Virus record (IMG/VR): IMGVR_UViG_2576861104_000005
Direction: 5' to 3' (one strand)
From: a virus
Lineage: Duplodnaviria > Heunggongvirae > Uroviricota > Caudoviricetes
Length of the DNA stretch: 14,559 nt
Below are positions 5,357 to 14,300 of the stretch, piece by piece (position 1 is the first letter of the stretch; every line of letters starts with the position of its first letter). The position numbers were made by a program.

Positions 5357-8300
5357 TTAATTAGAATAATTCACATCGTGTTTGAACGGAATTTAACACT
5401 AGTCACTTGTTAAGGATTACCAATGAACAAGCTATCTATGGGGGTGTTTCGCTGTTCAAGTGTCAGCGAAATATTGAAATACATTAGGGCAATAACATCT
5501 CACCGAGCGCCGATTAAATACGGCGTGGAAAAGGTGGAAGGCAAAAGCTATGACCGACTGCGCCGGGAGGCGAATCAGAAGGCGATAGATTTGCTTAATT
5601 CGCTGGTGGACGGCGCGACACTGACAGATGAACAGCGCCAGATCCTGGCTGGGTACACCGGTGAAGGCGGCATTGGCGGGTCCGTCTCCGAATATTACAC
5701 ACCAAAGCCGATCGCTGAAGGTGTCTGGGAGATCATGAAGCTCTACGGCGCGGACGTAGGTAACACTCTGGAACCATCGGCGGGCACCGGCGTTTTTAAT
5801 GAGACAAAACCGGTTGGTACGGTGATGACCGCGACTGAGATCAGCAGTGTTTCCGGTCGTATAAACCAGCTGTTACATCCGGAAGACAGCGTACAGATTT
5901 CCCCGTTCGAACAACTGGCTGTAAGCACGCCTAACGATTCATTCGACCATGTTGTGGGTAACGTTCCGTTCGGCGGTCGTGATAACACACGCAACATCGA
6001 TAAGCCTTACGCAGAAGAAACGGACATGGGGTCTTACTTCATGCTCCGCATGCTGGACAAGATAAAACCTGGCGGATTCATGTGTGTGATTGTGCCGCCG
6101 TCCATTGTTTCAGGTTCAAACATGAAGCGGTTACGCCTGCGCTTATCCCGTAAAGCTGAATTTCTTGGCGCTCACCGCTTGCCTACCGGTACTTTTGACG
6201 CAAACGGGACCAGTACAGTCGTTGATGTGGTGCTGATGCGCAAACATCCGGCAGAGATGGCTGAGAAAATCCCCCTGGTGCATGAAAGCACTCTCGAATC
6301 GGCAAATGTGCTTTGGCCAACGTTTATTTCTGGCAAGTGGTTTGAAAAGGACGGCCGCCGGTTTGTTCATGGCACCCAGGAAAAGGGCTTCCAGGGGCGT
6401 ATTGAGGTTCGTGCCGACGGTCAGATTGATAACCAGGCTCTTAAAGCGAAGCTGATTCATTGTTTCGAAAGCCGTATCGACTGGTATTTGCTCGATATGG
6501 CTGAACCGTCACCGACCGCAGATGTTGTTGATGAAGGGGAAATGCGCCTGATTAATGGCGTATGGCAAAAATATGCTGGTGGTCGCTGGATTGAATCTGA
6601 TGCCGGGAAGGAGCTGAAGATTGATGTTGCCAGTTATGGCGCGGACAGCTGGGAGGCTCTTCAGCGTAACCTGACTACAACAGAAGGCCGTCTCGGTATG
6701 ACATTTACCCAGATGGCAAATGTCCGCGATAAGTACACCACATCAATCAGCGACGATATGGTGCAGCTGGTGGACTGGATTAACAGCCAGCCTGAAAAAT
6801 ACCGTGAACGCTTGTATCGCGGGGCGATGATTGGCCGGATGTTAATTGAATATCAGGATATGAAGGCCGCCGGGCATAGTGCTGAACAAATCGAACAGCA
6901 GCGCCTTTCTCTGGTATCCCGTTTGCAGGCAGAGATTGACCGTTTTGGTAACCCCGGTCGCGGTCCGATAGCTAAATTATCGGGAAGCGGTGCGCGCGCC
7001 TGGTTTGCTTTCCGTGGTGCAATTAAGCTGGATGGCACTATTTCTGACGAGCTGACAGGAAAACTGGTTACGCATGATTCCAGCGCCAGTTATGACTCCA
7101 CCAGCTATCAGGACACCCTGCGTTATCTCTACAGTGATCTCACTCGCGATCCAATCCAGCTCGATGATTTCCGCCTTGCGTTTACCGGCGAACTGCCAGC
7201 CAGTGATGACGAGTTGCTTAATTTATTGGCCAGCACCCCTGGCATTGCGGTTTCACCGTATGGCGGGATTGTTCCGTTCGCCCGCGCCACCAGCGGCGAC
7301 ATTAACGAGATAGTGGCTCCAAAACAGGAATTCCTCGCCACGCTCACCGACGGTCCAGTAAAGAACAACGTCCTTAATCAGCTGGCAGCGATCGAAGAGA
7401 AGCGCATCAAGACGCCAGCAGAGAATATCCTGTTTAAGCTCAATAGCCGTTGGTTCGACCGTTCCGTCATTCTGGAATTTTTGCAGGAAAACGGCTATCC
7501 GGATCTGCGCTATGTGCAGTCAGTGCAGCTGGAAGGCGACGAAATGGTTTCTGACACCTATCACGGTGGTGATGGTCTGTTCGTCGGGCACCGATACGGT
7601 GTCGTCCAGCGCAAGGATAAAGAAACAGGCGAGATCCGCTACGAGTGGGACCGTAAATCAGGTGAAAACGCGACCGGGTTCCCGGCACAGCTGGAAAAGT
7701 ATCTCAATGGTGCGCGTATCGGTGGCAAAGATAGCGCGACGGCGAACGGCTACCGCGAGCAGATGGCACTGCTTGAGGACCAGTTCAATAAGTGGATCAA
7801 GACGCACGATCGCTACGATGAGCTGGTTGCCAAATACAACGATGTGTTCAATAGCAATATCCCGTATGAACACTCTGGCGATCCGCTTGGGTTGAAGGGA
7901 TTAAGCGGTAAGCGCCAGCCATTTGATTACCAGAATAGCGAGGTGCGCCGACTGTCCGAAGATGGGCGCGGCATCCTGGGCTTCGGCACCGGGCTGGGTA
8001 AAACCACGACCGCGCTGGCGCTTGAGGCGTTCAACTATGAGAACGGTCGCTCCACCCGTACTGCTTATGTAGTGCCTAAATCAGTGCTGGAAAACTGGTA
8101 TTACGAAGCAAAAGAGTTCCTGAGTGAAGAGGCATTCAGTAACTACCTGTTCGTCGGTCTTGATGTGCTGATGGATGGCGATCAGATTCGCCAGGTGCCG
8201 GTGCTCGATGAGAACGGTAAACCTGTTCTTGGTACTGATGGCACTCCAGTTATGCGCGATGCTCTTAAGCTGGCAGATGAAGCCACTATCACGGCGCGGA

Positions 8301-11300: not shown

Positions 11301-14300
11301 AGGTCACCAATGCCATTTTCGGTACCCATGAGTTCCGGGCGTCAGATTATGAGATCACCACAGCACAGTTTGGCACCATTGGCATTTACAGCAATAAAGC
11401 CGAGATCAAGCAGGCAATGGACTCAGCAAGCGCGCGCATCGCAGCAGAACGGGAAGCCAATCTGAATCATGCAGTCGCCGCGCTGACTCAATCGTGGGTA
11501 ACAGCAATCAGGGAGGCCGCCACCACAGGGAAAATCACATCTGCAATAGCGGATGTCGTAAACGATGGCTCTAAATTTATGGATGCCTATCAAATGGATG
11601 CGGTGAAGTTGCCATCAGCCTATGGTCAACTCCGCTATCGCATGACCTACAACCTGGTATCAATGTTTACTGACCTTGCCATCCTTGGGCTGGTGGATCT
11701 TAACGAGGTTACGCCGGAATTGCTCAGCATGCGCAAGAATCATGTGGAGATATTGCAGAGAATTAACACGGTTCTTGCCGGGCGCACCGATGAAGAGAAA
11801 CAGGCCGACGCTGATCGGATAAACCTGGCCCTTGGCAACATCACGGAGGAAGAGATTGCCGCCAGAAACGAGAAACAAGAAGAGTTATCATCAATACAGG
11901 GTGATGCCACCAGCATAGCTCAGTCTCTTGGTCTGAATTATCGCGTATCCACCGCCGACCTGAAGATGATGTACGCACCAAAATTCGCCGCTGGCGAGGT
12001 ATTTGGGCTTCAGGAAGCCTCAGGCATGAAAGGAGTTCTTTTCCGTGCGAAAGACGCAATCAAGGCGAAATTCGGCGCTCGCTGGCTGCCAGCGAAGGCG
12101 AAGAACAGCGATTTCCCGGGTAACTGGTGGATTATCGAGACAAAACACAACGTGGCGGACGTTCTGGCCGTCATCCAACAATACGCATAACAGGAGCGCC
12201 CGGTTCGCCGGGCGTCGCATAATATGGCCACACTATCTGATACAATAAAACCGAATAAAACATATCTTGAGGCGGTACTGCGTACAGCGTTGTTAGGAAA
12301 GACAGAAGACGAATACGTTGATTTCTTCCTGTCAGGGCTACGCGGGCGATTACTGAAAAATCCACGCCTGTACCGCAGCTATGGCCCATACTGGCCGGAA
12401 ATAAAAAAATTATTACTGGAGCGCGGTTATGGTAATTTCGGTCGTCTCGTTGACCGTGACGTTCGCAAAATTTACCGTTATGACCGCCCGGCGCTGACAC
12501 TCATAGCCGCGACGCTCTACAGCCAGGAGCGTTTCGATAATGGCCAGATATACTCAGCCTGGCATTTACTGCCAGTGCCTGAAGAGGTTGACGACCAGGA
12601 CTATGAGTTTGAGTCTTACGATTTGGAAGTTGAAGCCTTAGCACAGGCTGGAGAGAAAACTTGAAAAAGCGATACTACACAGTAAAGCATGGGACGCTAC
12701 GAGCATTACAAGAGTTTGCTGACAAGCATAACGTTGAGGTGCGCAGGGAAGGGGGGAGTAAAGCTCTGCGCATGTACCGTCCTGACGGAAAATGGCGGAC
12801 GGTCGTCGATTTCAAAACTAACAGCGTTCCCCAGGGCGTCCGCGACCGGGCATTCGAAGAATGGGAGCAAATCATCATAGATAATGCATTGCTCCTGAAT
12901 GCAGATTGATTTCTTATTAGGCCACTTTATTTTTTAGAGTGGCCTAAATTACTCATAATTAGGATGTGATATGAATGTTTTTATTGATACAAATCTATAT
13001 TTAGAATTTTATCGAATGGGTAAGGATAAATTAGATGAGCTAGATAAAGTATTTGCCTTACATCAATATGGTCGTTTAAAACTTTGGTTGCCAGAACTTT
13101 TAGTGAATGAATTCTGGAGAAATCGTTCTAAAGTTCTCTCTGAAACCATAAAGGAAATTGCAAAAGACTACAAGCCCGCGCTACCACAGATTTTTAGACA
13201 GCATGAAAAACATTCACTATTTAATGATAAGGTTATAGAAGCTAGTCGGCTAAAGAATGAAATTATTACCGATATCCAGAACTTATTTAAAGAAGAGGCT
13301 TTAGCTGCCGATGTTGTAATTAAAAGGATTTTTGATGCAGCGTCTAAGATAGAGGCTGATGATGAAACAATAGAAAAGGGGAAACGCCGATTCGATCTTG
13401 GCAACCCTCCGGGTAAAAATAAATCATATGGTGATGCAGTCAATTGGGAGTGTTTGCTAAAAGCGATACCAAACGGAGAGGATATATACATTATAACTGA
13501 AGATGGTGATTATAAAAGTGCCTTTATAAAGGATGATATGAATGAGTATTTGAAGTACGAGTGGAAAAAGAAGAAAGATTCAGAACCACATATCTATGCC
13601 CGCTTATCAGAGTTTATAGGCGAGCACTTTCCTCAAGCCAGTAACTTGGCGGAAATGGAAGTTAATTTCACTATAGATGAATTACGCCGCTCAGGCAGTT
13701 TTGCCACAACACATCGAGTTGTAGCAAAGTTATTAAAATTCAATCATTTTACACAAGAGCAAATCCTAAAAATAATCGACATCTATTTTAATAATGATCA
13801 GGTTGGCTTCATTAAAGATGATGATGATGTAAAACTACTCGCCAGAAGACTAATATCACTTGGTGACGAGGATAAAGATCCTGAAGGGATGCTTGAGCCA
13901 TTCCGTGTATTTATTGATTAATTAATGTAATGGGCGTGGGCGCATAGTTAGCGCCCAAGAAGTTTAAAGATAATTATCTCTGCCGGTTAATGAACCTTGA
14001 GGCACTTTCCGTGCGGTCATTTCATGAGTAGCTTGAATTATATTCACAAGGGAGCTTAGTAACGACGGTTCTTGGCGGGCCTCAACTTCTCCAGCCACTG
14101 CCCTGATGTAGTCGGAGCTTGCAACGTTGTTGTATTCCGTTGCGAAGCAGCATAACAACGTCAGAACGTGCTCTGTCGTTATTTCGCTCCAGTTGATGTT
14201 GAAAAATTCATCGCCTTTTTTGTCATGTTCGGAATCGAAGATGCTTTGGTGGAGGATGTATTTGCCGGATTCCTTGCGCGGTAACTTGATCGCTTTCTGG

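What the first reader, a model, noticed from the sequence alone, without database searches (positions are those of the whole stretch)
5423..12190. DarB giant methyltransferase-helicase: unassigned C-terminal third and an unusual NVPF catalytic motif
The 2255-aa ORF matches P1 DarB, a virion-packaged antirestriction protein that protects incoming DNA from type I restriction. The sequence shows an N-terminal gamma-type N6-adenine MTase with motif IV reading NVPF rather than canonical (D/N)PP(Y/F), and a central SF2 helicase. After about residue 1560 there are roughly 700 residues with coiled-coil-like, Ala/Lys/Glu-rich stretches (e.g. MQVQMDKAKAAQRARQKEQATIDLQNY...AELERSKAELEKTTAEVAKFKQAV) and no motif I can assign. 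That C-terminal region may mediate capsid packaging or ejection.
Basis: partly seen in the sequence, partly recalled or inferred. Interest (0 to 1): 0.45.

Follow-up and report, generated by a model that had tools for sequence, protein, structure and literature searches.

The report
Phage P1 DarB antirestriction protein
This is the already known DarB gene of a P1-type phage, a giant virion-packaged enzyme that shields incoming DNA from host restriction; its odd-looking NVPF catalytic motif is normal for its family, and its last third folds but resembles nothing of known function.

Summary
The 2255-aa ORF at 5423..12190 (+) is real and is DarB of a P1-like phage or plasmid prophage. It is 2238/2255 identical to P1 DarB and has the same neighbours (pro, prt upstream; ulx, lxc downstream).

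NVPF (aa 180-183) sits at motif IV. It follows strand beta4 of a predicted gamma-class N6-adenine MTase fold and aligns with NPPF of EcoKI HsdM. It is not a P1 oddity. Of 26 mutually distant full-length relatives, 19 have NVPF, 5 NPPF/NPPY, 1 NAPF and 1 NIPF. N, the second P and F/Y never vary. The same tetrapeptide occurs in the Erm-type N6-adenine rRNA methyltransferases PikR1/PikR2.

The C-terminal third (aa 1541-2255) has no Pfam, NCBIfam or PDB match by sequence, profile or fold. It still folds confidently (pLDDT 83): a long basic antiparallel coiled-coil arm, then small acidic domains, then a basic terminal alpha/beta domain. It occurs only at the end of DarB-sized proteins of P1-like elements and evolves faster than the enzyme cores.

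Verdict: known gene, real knowledge gap, modest interest.

The parts
5423..12190 (+). darB ORF, 2255 aa plus stop codon, 251.5 kDa
   Evidence: ORF list and translation. It is 2238/2255 identical to P1 DarB. The P1 annotation places darB at the same position.
5423..5512 (+). aa 1-30, published capsid-targeting sequence (basic, net +4)
   Evidence: These residues are identical to P1 DarB. The N-terminal 30 residues suffice to package TetR-mCherry into P1 capsids (PMC9024508). Charge.
5513..5689 (+). aa 31-89, helical N-terminal domain (LPD36-like) ending in the Gly-rich GEGGIGGS motif
   Evidence: Predicted helices at aa 43-60 and 69-76. Y78, G80 and G82 are invariant in relatives. LPD36 and its GxGU motif are described for DarB-type proteins in PMC5512222.
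5690..6322 (+). aa 90-300, gamma-class N6-adenine DNA methyltransferase domain (HsdM/TaqI-like): EYYTP, motif I EPSAGTG, motif IV NVPF, motif VIII LPTGTF
   Evidence: Pfam N6_Mtase and Eco57I. phmmer matches EcoKI HsdM at E 4e-6. Foldseek matches HsdM, BsaXI, M.BseCI, M.TaqI and CamA at E 1e-8 to 1e-5. The model shows a seven-strand class I MTase topology.
5960..5971 (+). motif IV, NVPF (aa 180-183)
   Evidence: It aligns with NPPF of EcoKI HsdM. It follows predicted strand beta4, aa 174-180. N180, P182 and F183 are invariant; position 181 is V, P, A or I across the family.
6323..7912 (+). aa 301-830, unassigned middle region (mixed beta and helical subdomains), conserved in length across the family
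   Evidence: No Pfam match. The model has block pLDDT mostly 55-92. Conservation is 0.3-0.5 with few gaps.
7913..10042 (+). aa 831-1540, SNF2-type SF2 ATPase/translocase with large inserts: Walker A 855-861, DEGH 1052-1055, TATP 1105-1108, motif VI 1508-1515
   Evidence: Pfam SNF2-rel_dom, ResIII and Helicase_C. NCBIfam gives partial matches to DrmD and DpdE helicases. Helicase motifs II and VI were found in all 25 full-length relatives, with variation at a few positions (DEGH or DEAH; one divergent motif VI). The strict Walker A pattern matched 18 of the 25.
10043..12187 (+). aa 1541-2255, C-terminal third with no assignable family
   Evidence: No Pfam, NCBIfam or PDB match by sequence or profile. 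AlphaFold2 mean pLDDT is 82.8. Foldseek finds no PDB match at E<=0.001. Relatives occur only at the C-terminus of DarB-sized proteins.
10649..11002 (+). aa 1743-1860, beta-rich and alpha/beta subdomains (acidic, pI 4.4 for aa 1727-1860)
   Evidence: Predicted strands at model residues 203-261 and 307-320, block pLDDT about 86-93. G1754 is invariant and Y1757 nearly so. Charge.
11057..11926 (+). aa 1879-2168, mainly helical subdomains including one long helix (aa 1992-2035); the most variable part
   Evidence: Conservation is 0.18-0.33 with up to 39% gaps. Ten of the 17 differences from P1 DarB lie within this part.
11927..12187 (+). aa 2169-2255, terminal small alpha/beta domain (basic, pI 9.7) with conserved GK.G.L and G.WW.IP motifs
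   Evidence: block pLDDT 71-92. K2214 and W2236 are invariant. Conservation rises to 0.41 here. Charge.
12224..12664 (+). ulx, 146 aa, the conserved downstream partner gene of darB
   Evidence: P1 annotation. Ulx is a virion protein listed as aiding DarB localisation (PMC9024508). A homologue of 25-28% identity, with a conserved P..YRAYG.YWW.VK motif, lies directly downstream of darB-like genes in four distant loci and in phage D6.

Best explanation
The ORF is darB of a P1-like phage or plasmid prophage.

Known from the literature:
- DarB is a roughly 250 kDa internal head protein, with about 40 copies per virion.
- An N-terminal signal directs it into the capsid.
- It is believed to enter the cell with the DNA.
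- It protects only the DNA it arrives with (in cis) against EcoKI/EcoBI-type restriction.

Shown here:
- Its HsdM-like N6-adenine methyltransferase and its SNF2-type ATPase keep their catalytic motifs across relatives that share as little as about a quarter of their residues. The exception is the strict Walker A pattern, which matched 18 of 25. Motif IV reads N-[V/P/A/I]-P-[F/Y].

Inferred:
- Both enzyme activities are needed. DarB rides along the entering DNA by ATP-driven translocation and methylates it, or clears or blocks type I complexes on it.
- NVPF is a working form of the catalytic loop, not a defect.
- The C-terminal third is a non-catalytic module specific to this lineage: a basic coiled-coil arm, acidic globular domains and a basic end domain. 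It most likely holds DarB to partners (Ulx, DdrB, or itself) and to DNA. It is not the packaging signal.

The confidence value is a blend. The identity as DarB is near certain (above 0.95). That NVPF is a working motif I put at about 0.8. The specific role I give the C-terminal third I put at about 0.35.
For: Identity and context.

Published biology:
- N-terminal capsid signal, about 40 copies per virion, and Ulx and DdrB aiding DarB incorporation (PMC9024508).
- Action in cis only, mechanism unresolved (PMC12707154).
- DarB as the archetype of the MTase-SNF2 dyad (PMC5512222).

MTase:
- Sequence match to EcoKI HsdM, with NVPF aligned to NPPF and LPTGTF to LPTGIF.
- Fold matches to HsdM, TaqI, BseCI and CamA.
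- NVPF directly follows strand beta4.
- Invariant residues include E90, T93, P94, P118, G123, F125, E139, D175, N180, P182 and F258.
- Motif IV counts are 19 NVPF, 5 NPPF/Y, 1 NAPF and 1 NIPF.
- The NPP forms lie in two separate subclades of an NJ tree.
- NVPF occurs in PikR1/PikR2.

Helicase: motif II and motif VI were found in all 25 full-length relatives and Walker A in 18.

C-terminal third:
- Confident model.
- Only coiled-coil fold matches.
- No family match in any of 17 divergent members.
- Only 83 hits among 1.84 billion representative proteins; every hit in a protein of DarB size (25 of at least 1900 aa) lies at the C-terminal end, and the rest are shorter fragments and fusion proteins.
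- Lower conservation than the enzyme cores.
- Alternating basic and acidic segments.
- darB-ulx adjacency is conserved in five distant lineages.
Against: - No biochemical activity of DarB has been reported in the papers I could read.
- The only plasmid-based test of catalytic mutants was confounded by a DNA-mediated effect: Chi plus EcoKI sites triggered restriction alleviation (PMC11109961).
- Unspecific adenine methylation would be expected to protect against more than EcoK/EcoB, which does not fit DarB's narrow published spectrum.
- Nothing here links the C-terminal region directly to Ulx, DdrB or DNA. The role I assign rests on its distribution, its charge pattern and the lack of catalytic signatures.
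- I could not inspect model coordinates, so the geometry of the active site around V181 is unchecked.
- Piya et al. 2017 and Lobocka et al. 2004 were not available to read.
Confidence: 0.55

Rival explanations
1. The C-terminal third mediates capsid incorporation or passage through the tail during ejection.
For: - The module occurs only in DarB proteins of P1-like elements that also carry the other Dar head proteins.
- DarB incorporation depends on other Dar proteins such as Ulx and DdrB (PMC9024508).
- A long coiled-coil arm could dock onto internal head proteins.
Against: - The N-terminal 30 residues alone send a foreign protein into P1 capsids, and small N-terminal deletions block DarB packaging (PMC9024508).
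- No data bear on ejection.
Confidence: 0.2
2. The C-terminal third is the DNA-recognition or DNA-clamping part of the methyltransferase. It would play the role that HsdS, or a target-recognition domain, plays for HsdM-type enzymes.
For: - The MTase is HsdM-like and has no separate specificity subunit.
- HsdS proteins also use long antiparallel helices (my own knowledge).
- The coiled-coil arm and the terminal domain are basic, pI 9.7.
Against: - In gamma-class enzymes the recognition domain normally follows the MTase directly. Here that position is taken by the unassigned region aa 301-830.
- The globular C-terminal domains are acidic.
Confidence: 0.15
3. The C-terminal third binds or decoys the type I restriction enzyme itself. 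It would be an arms-race surface that sets the specificity for the EcoK/EcoB family.
For: - It is the fastest-evolving part of the protein.
- 16 of the 17 amino-acid differences and 33 of the 34 nucleotide differences from P1 DarB lie in it.
- Several of its subdomains are acidic, pI 4.4-5.0, as DNA-mimic inhibitors are.
- DarB's published spectrum follows enzyme families rather than DNA sites.
Against: - Dar works only in cis; co-infecting dar-minus phages are not rescued (PMC12707154). This argues against a free inhibitor.
- The clustered differences can equally be a recombination patch in a Chi-rich mosaic genome.
- The fold search found no similarity to Ocr or ArdA.
Confidence: 0.12
4. NVPF marks an inactive or altered methyltransferase, and DarB protects DNA only through binding or translocation.
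For: - The canonical DNA N6-adenine motif is (D/N)PP(Y/F/W), and DarB deviates at the second position.
- No DarB-dependent methylation has been reported in the papers I read.
Against: - The catalytic Asn, the second Pro and the aromatic residue are invariant, as are motif I and the EYYTP motif, over deep divergence.
- Orthologues switch between V and P at least twice.
- NVPF and the related NIPY form occur in the Erm-family N6-adenine rRNA methyltransferases PikR1/PikR2 and ErmC' (PMC6787224).
Confidence: 0.1

Closest known systems
Bacteriophage P1 DarB (AAQ13985; P1 and P7 Dar antirestriction system)
   Same: 99% identical over all 2255 residues. Same gene order, pro-prt / darB-ulx-lxc. Identical N-terminal capsid-targeting residues.
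   Different: 17 substitutions, 16 of them between residues 1699 and 2215. Downstream of lxc the window has a PIN-domain gene where P1 has the EcoPI mod/res cassette.
MTase-SNF2 helicase dyad of 'polyvalent proteins' in phages and conjugative elements (Iyer et al. 2017, PMC5512222)
   Same: An N-terminal helical domain with a Gly-rich motif, a TP motif, an EcoKI/TaqI-like gamma MTase and then an SNF2-type ATPase. DarB is the stated archetype.
   Different: That paper describes the motif as NPP(Y/F), whereas most DarB-family members have NVPF. The roughly 715-residue C-terminal module is confined to DarB-sized proteins of P1-like elements.
Type I R-M methylase subunit HsdM (EcoKI M, PDB 2y7c/2ar0; also 7eew, 2okc)
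   Same: The best sequence and fold matches for the MTase core. Motif IV and the LPTG(T/I)F motif align residue for residue.
   Different: DarB has no HsdS partner. It is fused to a translocase and is packaged in a virion. Motif IV has V instead of the first P.
Erm/KsgA-type N6-adenine rRNA methyltransferases (ErmC' NIPY; PikR1/PikR2 NVPF)
   Same: The same motif IV pattern, (A/S/N)(L/I/V)P(Y/F). The exact NVPF tetrapeptide occurs in PikR1/PikR2 (PMC6787224).
   Different: A different family (Pfam PF00398, not matched here), an RNA substrate and no helicase. The resemblance is limited to the catalytic loop.
Defence systems that pair an SNF2-like helicase with an adenine methylase (DISARM DrmD; Dpd DpdE; type III Res/Mod)
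   Same: Partial matches of helicase lobe 2 to DrmD and DpdE models. The general logic of coupling a translocase to a methylase is shared.
   Different: The scores are far below the family cut-offs (44 against 610 bits for DrmD). DarB is an anti-defence protein delivered by the phage.

Membership tests
P1 DarB (Dar antirestriction system) | Full-length sequence identity to P1 DarB | tested here: met
   2238/2255 identical, no gaps.
P1 DarB (Dar antirestriction system) | Genomic position between the head genes prt/pro and ulx/lxc in a P1-type genome | tested here: met
   The window is 99.4% identical to P1, and the annotation maps one to one.
P1 DarB (Dar antirestriction system) | N-terminal capsid-targeting sequence (residues 1-30) | tested here: met
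   Residues 1-30 are identical to P1 DarB. The function of this signal is published (PMC9024508).
P1 DarB (Dar antirestriction system) | Virion packaging and cis protection against EcoK/EcoB restriction | not testable with these tools
   Requires phage genetics. Inferred from the 99% identity.
Gamma-class N6-adenine DNA methyltransferase (HsdM/TaqI-like) | Class I MTase fold with motif order X, I, IV, VIII and the recognition region after the catalytic core | tested here: met
   Predicted strand order, with beta4 at aa 174-180. Foldseek E 1e-8 to 1e-5 to HsdM, BsaXI, M.BseCI, M.TaqI and CamA. EYYTP at 90-94 lies before motif I at 117-123.
Gamma-class N6-adenine DNA methyltransferase (HsdM/TaqI-like) | SAM-binding motif I, (D/E)PxxGxGxF | tested here: met
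   EPSAGTGVF at aa 117-125. P118, G123 and F125 are invariant.
Gamma-class N6-adenine DNA methyltransferase (HsdM/TaqI-like) | Catalytic motif IV, (D/N)PP(Y/F/W) | tested here: inconclusive
   The position is correct and N, the second P and F are present and invariant. The first P is V. The variant swaps with NPPF/Y in orthologues and occurs in PikR1/PikR2. It fails the literal consensus, but the evidence points to a working loop.
Gamma-class N6-adenine DNA methyltransferase (HsdM/TaqI-like) | Demonstrated N6-adenine methylation of DNA | not testable with these tools
   No report was found in the papers read.
SNF2-type SF2 ATPase/translocase | Helicase motifs I, II, III and VI, and Pfam SNF2-rel_dom plus Helicase_C above gathering score | tested here: met
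   GTGLGKT, DEGH, TATP and QRNGRGAR are present. SNF2-rel_dom scores 41.3 bits (cut-off 24.9) and Helicase_C 27.8 bits (cut-off 23.5). Motifs II and VI were found in all 25 full-length relatives and Walker A in 18 of them.
Polyvalent-protein MTase-helicase dyad with LPD36 domain | N-terminal helical domain with a GxGU motif, followed by a TP motif | tested here: met
   Helices at aa 43-60 and 69-76, then GEGGIGGS at aa 80-87 with G80 and G82 invariant, then EYYTP. The definition comes from PMC5512222. No LPD36 profile was available for a direct test.
HsdS-like specificity module or target-recognition domain (considered for the C-terminal third) | Fold similarity of the globular domains to HsdS or MTase target-recognition domains | tested here: not met
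Erm/KsgA rRNA adenine dimethylase family (PF00398) | Sequence membership of the family | tested here: not met
   No Pfam match to PF00398. Only the motif IV pattern is shared.

The most novel reading that the evidence does not exclude
The N-[V/I/A]-P-F catalytic loop is the type linked in the literature with N6,N6-dimethylating adenine methyltransferases. It might give DarB a roomier active site that allows repeated or unspecific methylation of the entering DNA while the SNF2 motor moves it along. The C-terminal third would then be a new fold module that couples this machine to Ulx or to DNA. That would be a new, enzyme-driven and cis-acting way to defeat type I restriction.
Probability: 0.07. 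Interest if true: 0.7.

Novelty: already known. Interest (0 to 1): 0.3.

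Why it matters
How DarB works has been open since 1987, and recent reviews still call the Dar mechanism unclear. The gene itself is not new. The analysis does sharpen what to test:

- Both catalytic centres are under long-term selection, so enzyme-dead mutants should be informative if tested in the phage rather than on plasmids (see the artefact).
- NVPF should be treated as a working motif.
- The C-terminal third is a confidently folded module restricted to this lineage, with clear domain boundaries for truncations.
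- Ulx is a conserved partner.

P1 is also being developed as a protein-delivery vehicle that uses the DarB signal, so knowing which parts of DarB are dispensable has practical value.

Tried and rejected
Searches on the C-terminal third that found nothing:
- Pfam, NCBIfam and PHROGs gave only DarB-specific PHROGs and chance-level hits.
- phmmer and a 17-sequence profile against PDB sequences gave only coiled-coil-like, non-significant hits.
- A Pfam scan of all 17 divergent members, looking for weak hits that recur, found no family hit by more than one member.
- Foldseek against PDB gave nothing at E<=0.001.

Limits of the fold searches:
- The AlphaFold-database library was not available.
- Model coordinates could not be inspected.

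Leads rejected:
- The many 455-462-aa proteins equal to the DarB C-terminus begin, in the window's sequence, at an internal GTG (V1794) or at a GTT codon (V1801) that is not a start there. No ribosome-binding site was examined. I read them as fragments or gene-calling artefacts, not as a separate gene product.
- The DarA-DarB, DdrB-DarB and other fusion proteins looked like evidence for a portable module. The one checked in its genome context, the DarA-DarB fusion, lies in deletion derivatives of P1-like plasmids carrying Tn3-family and arsenic-resistance insertions.

Not available to read: Piya et al. 2017 and Lobocka et al. 2004.

Full report
**1. What is there**

The window holds a single 2255-codon ORF at 5423..12190 on the + strand. 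The whole window is 99.4% identical to phage P1 in reverse orientation. The ORF product is 2238/2255 identical, without gaps, to P1 DarB.

Gene order matches the P1 annotation: isaA, ssb, lyz, lydD/E, pro and prt upstream; ulx and lxc downstream. The ORF is therefore darB of a P1-like phage or plasmid prophage.

The literature held here describes DarB as follows:
- It is a roughly 250 kDa internal head protein with about 40 copies per virion.
- It is believed to enter the cell with the DNA.
- It is required for protection against EcoB and EcoK (PMC9024508; PMC12810830).
- Dar acts only in cis, and its mechanism is still called unclear (PMC12707154; PMC11109961).

**2. Domain map**

Pfam assigns N6_Mtase and Eco57I (aa 145-290), SNF2-rel_dom and ResIII (aa 833-911) and Helicase_C (aa 1455-1517). 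It assigns nothing after residue 1517.

The motifs are EYYTP 90-94, EPSAGTG 117-123, NVPF 180-183, GTGLGKT 855-861, DEGH 1052-1055, TATP 1105-1108 and QRNGRGAR 1508-1515.

An AlphaFold2 model of aa 1-830, built with 16 distant homologues, has mean pLDDT 78.5. It shows two N-terminal helices, a helical domain ending in the Gly-rich GEGGIGGS motif, and a seven-strand class I methyltransferase core. Foldseek against the PDB matches this core to type I HsdM subunits (7eew, 2okc, 2y7c, 2ar0), BsaXI, M.BseCI, M.TaqI, PacII and CamA at E 1e-8 to 1e-5. This agrees with Iyer et al. 2017, who name DarB the archetype of a methylase-SNF2 dyad with an N-terminal LPD36 domain.

**3. The NVPF motif**

NVPF directly follows predicted strand beta4 (aa 174-180), which is where motif IV sits in all class I amino-methyltransferases. 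In a phmmer alignment to EcoKI HsdM, 'NVPFG' aligns with 'NPPFG', and the downstream 'LPTGTF' aligns with 'LPTGIF'.

It is not a peculiarity of this protein.
- Among 18 N-terminal fragments spanning 27-87% identity, 16 have NVPF and the two most distant have NPPF.
- Among 26 full-length family members, 25 from a library clustered at 50% identity plus the window's DarB, the counts are NVPF 19, NPPF/NPPY 5, NAPF 1 and NIPF 1. N180, P182, F/Y183 and G184 are essentially invariant.
- On a neighbour-joining tree of the enzyme cores, the NPP forms fall in two separate subclades nested among NVPF lineages. Position 2 has therefore switched more than once while everything around it stayed fixed.
- The literature gives (A/S/N)(L/I/V)P(Y/F) as the motif IV consensus of dimethylating N6-adenine methyltransferases. 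It reports the exact tetrapeptide NVPF in PikR1 and PikR2, members of the Erm family of rRNA adenine methyltransferases (PMC6787224).
- Motif I, the EYYTP motif and E139, D175 and F258 are invariant.

The methyltransferase therefore looks catalytically intact. Whether it is active has not been shown anywhere I could read.

**4. The helicase**

Helicase motifs II and VI were found in all 25 full-length relatives, with variation at a few positions: DEGH or DEAH, and one divergent motif VI. The strict Walker A pattern matched 18 of the 25. TATP was confirmed only in DarB itself.

The enzyme cores are the best-conserved parts of the protein, with column conservation 0.6-0.7. NCBIfam gives only partial, sub-threshold matches of lobe 2 to DISARM DrmD and DpdE. 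Selection on both catalytic centres supports a mechanism that needs both ATP-driven translocation and methyl transfer, as Iyer et al. proposed. This is an inference.

One published attempt tested catalytic mutants on plasmids. It was confounded because darB DNA itself, which carries 11 Chi sites, together with an EcoKI site on the vector, triggers host restriction alleviation. I confirmed 11 Chi sites in darB.

**5. The C-terminal third (aa 1541-2255)**

Sequence methods find nothing:
- Pfam, NCBIfam and PDB sequence searches are empty or at chance level.
- A profile of 17 divergent members against PDB gives only non-significant coiled-coil-like hits.
- Scanning all 17 members against Pfam yields no family hit by more than one member.
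- PHROGs finds only DarB-specific families. One other DarB-like PHROG (phrog_11801) matches the N-terminal two thirds but not this region.

An exhaustive HMMER search of 1.84 billion representative proteins finds only 83 hits. Every hit in a protein of DarB size (25 of at least 1900 aa) lies at the C-terminal end. The rest are shorter fragments and fusion proteins. In the phage collection the region occurs in 21 records, all P1-like, and phage D6 matches only over the first 384 residues.

The region is not disordered. An AlphaFold2 model with 16 homologues of 17-31% identity has mean pLDDT 82.8 and pTM 0.53. Its parts, with charges, are:

| DarB residues | Predicted structure | Charge |
|---|---|---|
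| 1743-1860 | beta-rich and alpha/beta subdomains | acidic, pI 4.4 for aa 1727-1860 |
| 1879-2168 | mainly helical subdomains with one more long helix | acidic |
| 2169-2255 | small alpha/beta domain with conserved GK.G.L and G.WW.IP motifs | basic, pI 9.7 |

With whole-model searches, the globular parts have no detectable solved relatives.

**6. How the C-terminal third evolves, and its context**

It is the least conserved part of the protein, at 0.2-0.4 against 0.6-0.7 for the enzyme cores, although its length is kept.

Even against P1 itself the differences cluster here. Sixteen of 17 amino-acid differences lie between residues 1699 and 2215, and 33 of 34 nucleotide differences lie after codon 1500. 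This is either a recombination patch or faster change.

In four distant loci from metagenomes and genomes, and in phage D6, a darB-like gene is followed directly by a ulx homologue. These homologues are 25-28% identical across a five-sequence alignment and share a conserved P..YRAYG.YWW.VK motif. The loci also carry DarA-, DdrB-, portal- or protease-like genes. darB-ulx is thus a conserved pair, and the family belongs to P1-like elements that carry Dar systems.

**7. Interpretation**

For packaging, published work points elsewhere. N-terminal truncations abolish DarB incorporation, and residues 1-30 alone carry TetR-mCherry into P1 capsids. Ejection is untested.

My best reading is that the C-terminal third is a non-catalytic module specific to this lineage. 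It would tether DarB to partners (Ulx, DdrB or itself, through the coiled-coil arm) and to DNA through its two basic segments. My confidence in this specific role is only moderate, because it rests on distribution, charge and the absence of catalytic signatures.

Three rivals remain open:
- An HsdS-like DNA-recognition module. It has no fold support.
- A surface that engages the restriction enzyme. This fits the fast evolution and acidic domains but is hard to square with action in cis only.

**8. Verdict**

This is a known gene, correctly identified. The NVPF point is real but ordinary for the family. The C-terminal third is a real gap in knowledge for which I can now give domain boundaries and a restricted distribution, but not a function. 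Interest is modest.

Noticed in passing
window 12971..13921 (+): A low-GC (about 36-41%) gene for a 316-aa PIN-domain protein (PIN_12 and PIN_8, E 7e-18) sits between lxc and mat, exactly where P1 carries the EcoPI mod/res type III cassette. The same arrangement is at least 99% identical in nine P1-like plasmids of E. coli, E. albertii and E. fergusonii, five of them at 100%. Related plasmids carry a SIR2_2 gene in this slot (L003, L004). This looks like a swap site for defence genes.
   Followed up: partly
window 1..14559; darB 5423..12190: There are 16 Chi sites (GCTGGTGG) in 14.5 kb, against about 0.4 expected for a random 8-mer on both strands. Eleven lie inside darB, six on the + strand and five on the - strand. 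This matches the published count and the report that darB DNA on plasmids triggers restriction alleviation by itself.
   Followed up: partly
window 10517..12067 (DarB aa 1699-2215): Almost all divergence from P1 DarB is concentrated here: 16 of 17 amino-acid differences, and 33 of 34 nucleotide differences after codon 1500. The first 4.5 kb of the gene differ from P1 at a single base. This suggests a recombination patch or locally faster evolution.
   Followed up: partly
L003 8001..11078 and L004 3466..6543: A 1025-aa in-frame fusion joins DarA_N/DarA_C to the last roughly 586 residues of DarB and is followed by ulx and lxc. It is found on 20 contigs and lies next to a Tn3-family transposase, with arsenic-resistance genes also present in L003. 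These look like deletion derivatives of P1-like plasmids. Other fusions of the DarB C-terminus to a ddrB-ParB domain or to PF21379 also exist.
   Followed up: partly
window 6323..7912 (DarB aa 301-830): A second long stretch of 530 residues, between the methyltransferase and the helicase, also has no Pfam assignment. It is predicted to fold into beta-rich and helical subdomains, and it sits where gamma-class enzymes usually carry their target-recognition domain.
   Followed up: partly
PDB 7eew_A aligned to DarB aa 176-185: In the phmmer alignment, the Vibrio vulnificus type I methylase subunit (7eew) reads 'SGVPFG' where DarB reads 'GNVPFG'. It has the same V-P-F but lacks the catalytic Asn at the aligned position.
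   Followed up: no
L002, L005, L006, L007 and L008 (phage D6): In distant relatives the Dar genes are clustered more tightly than in P1. DdrB-ParB, DarA_N/DarA_C and InPase-domain genes lie within a few kb of darB-ulx.
   Followed up: no
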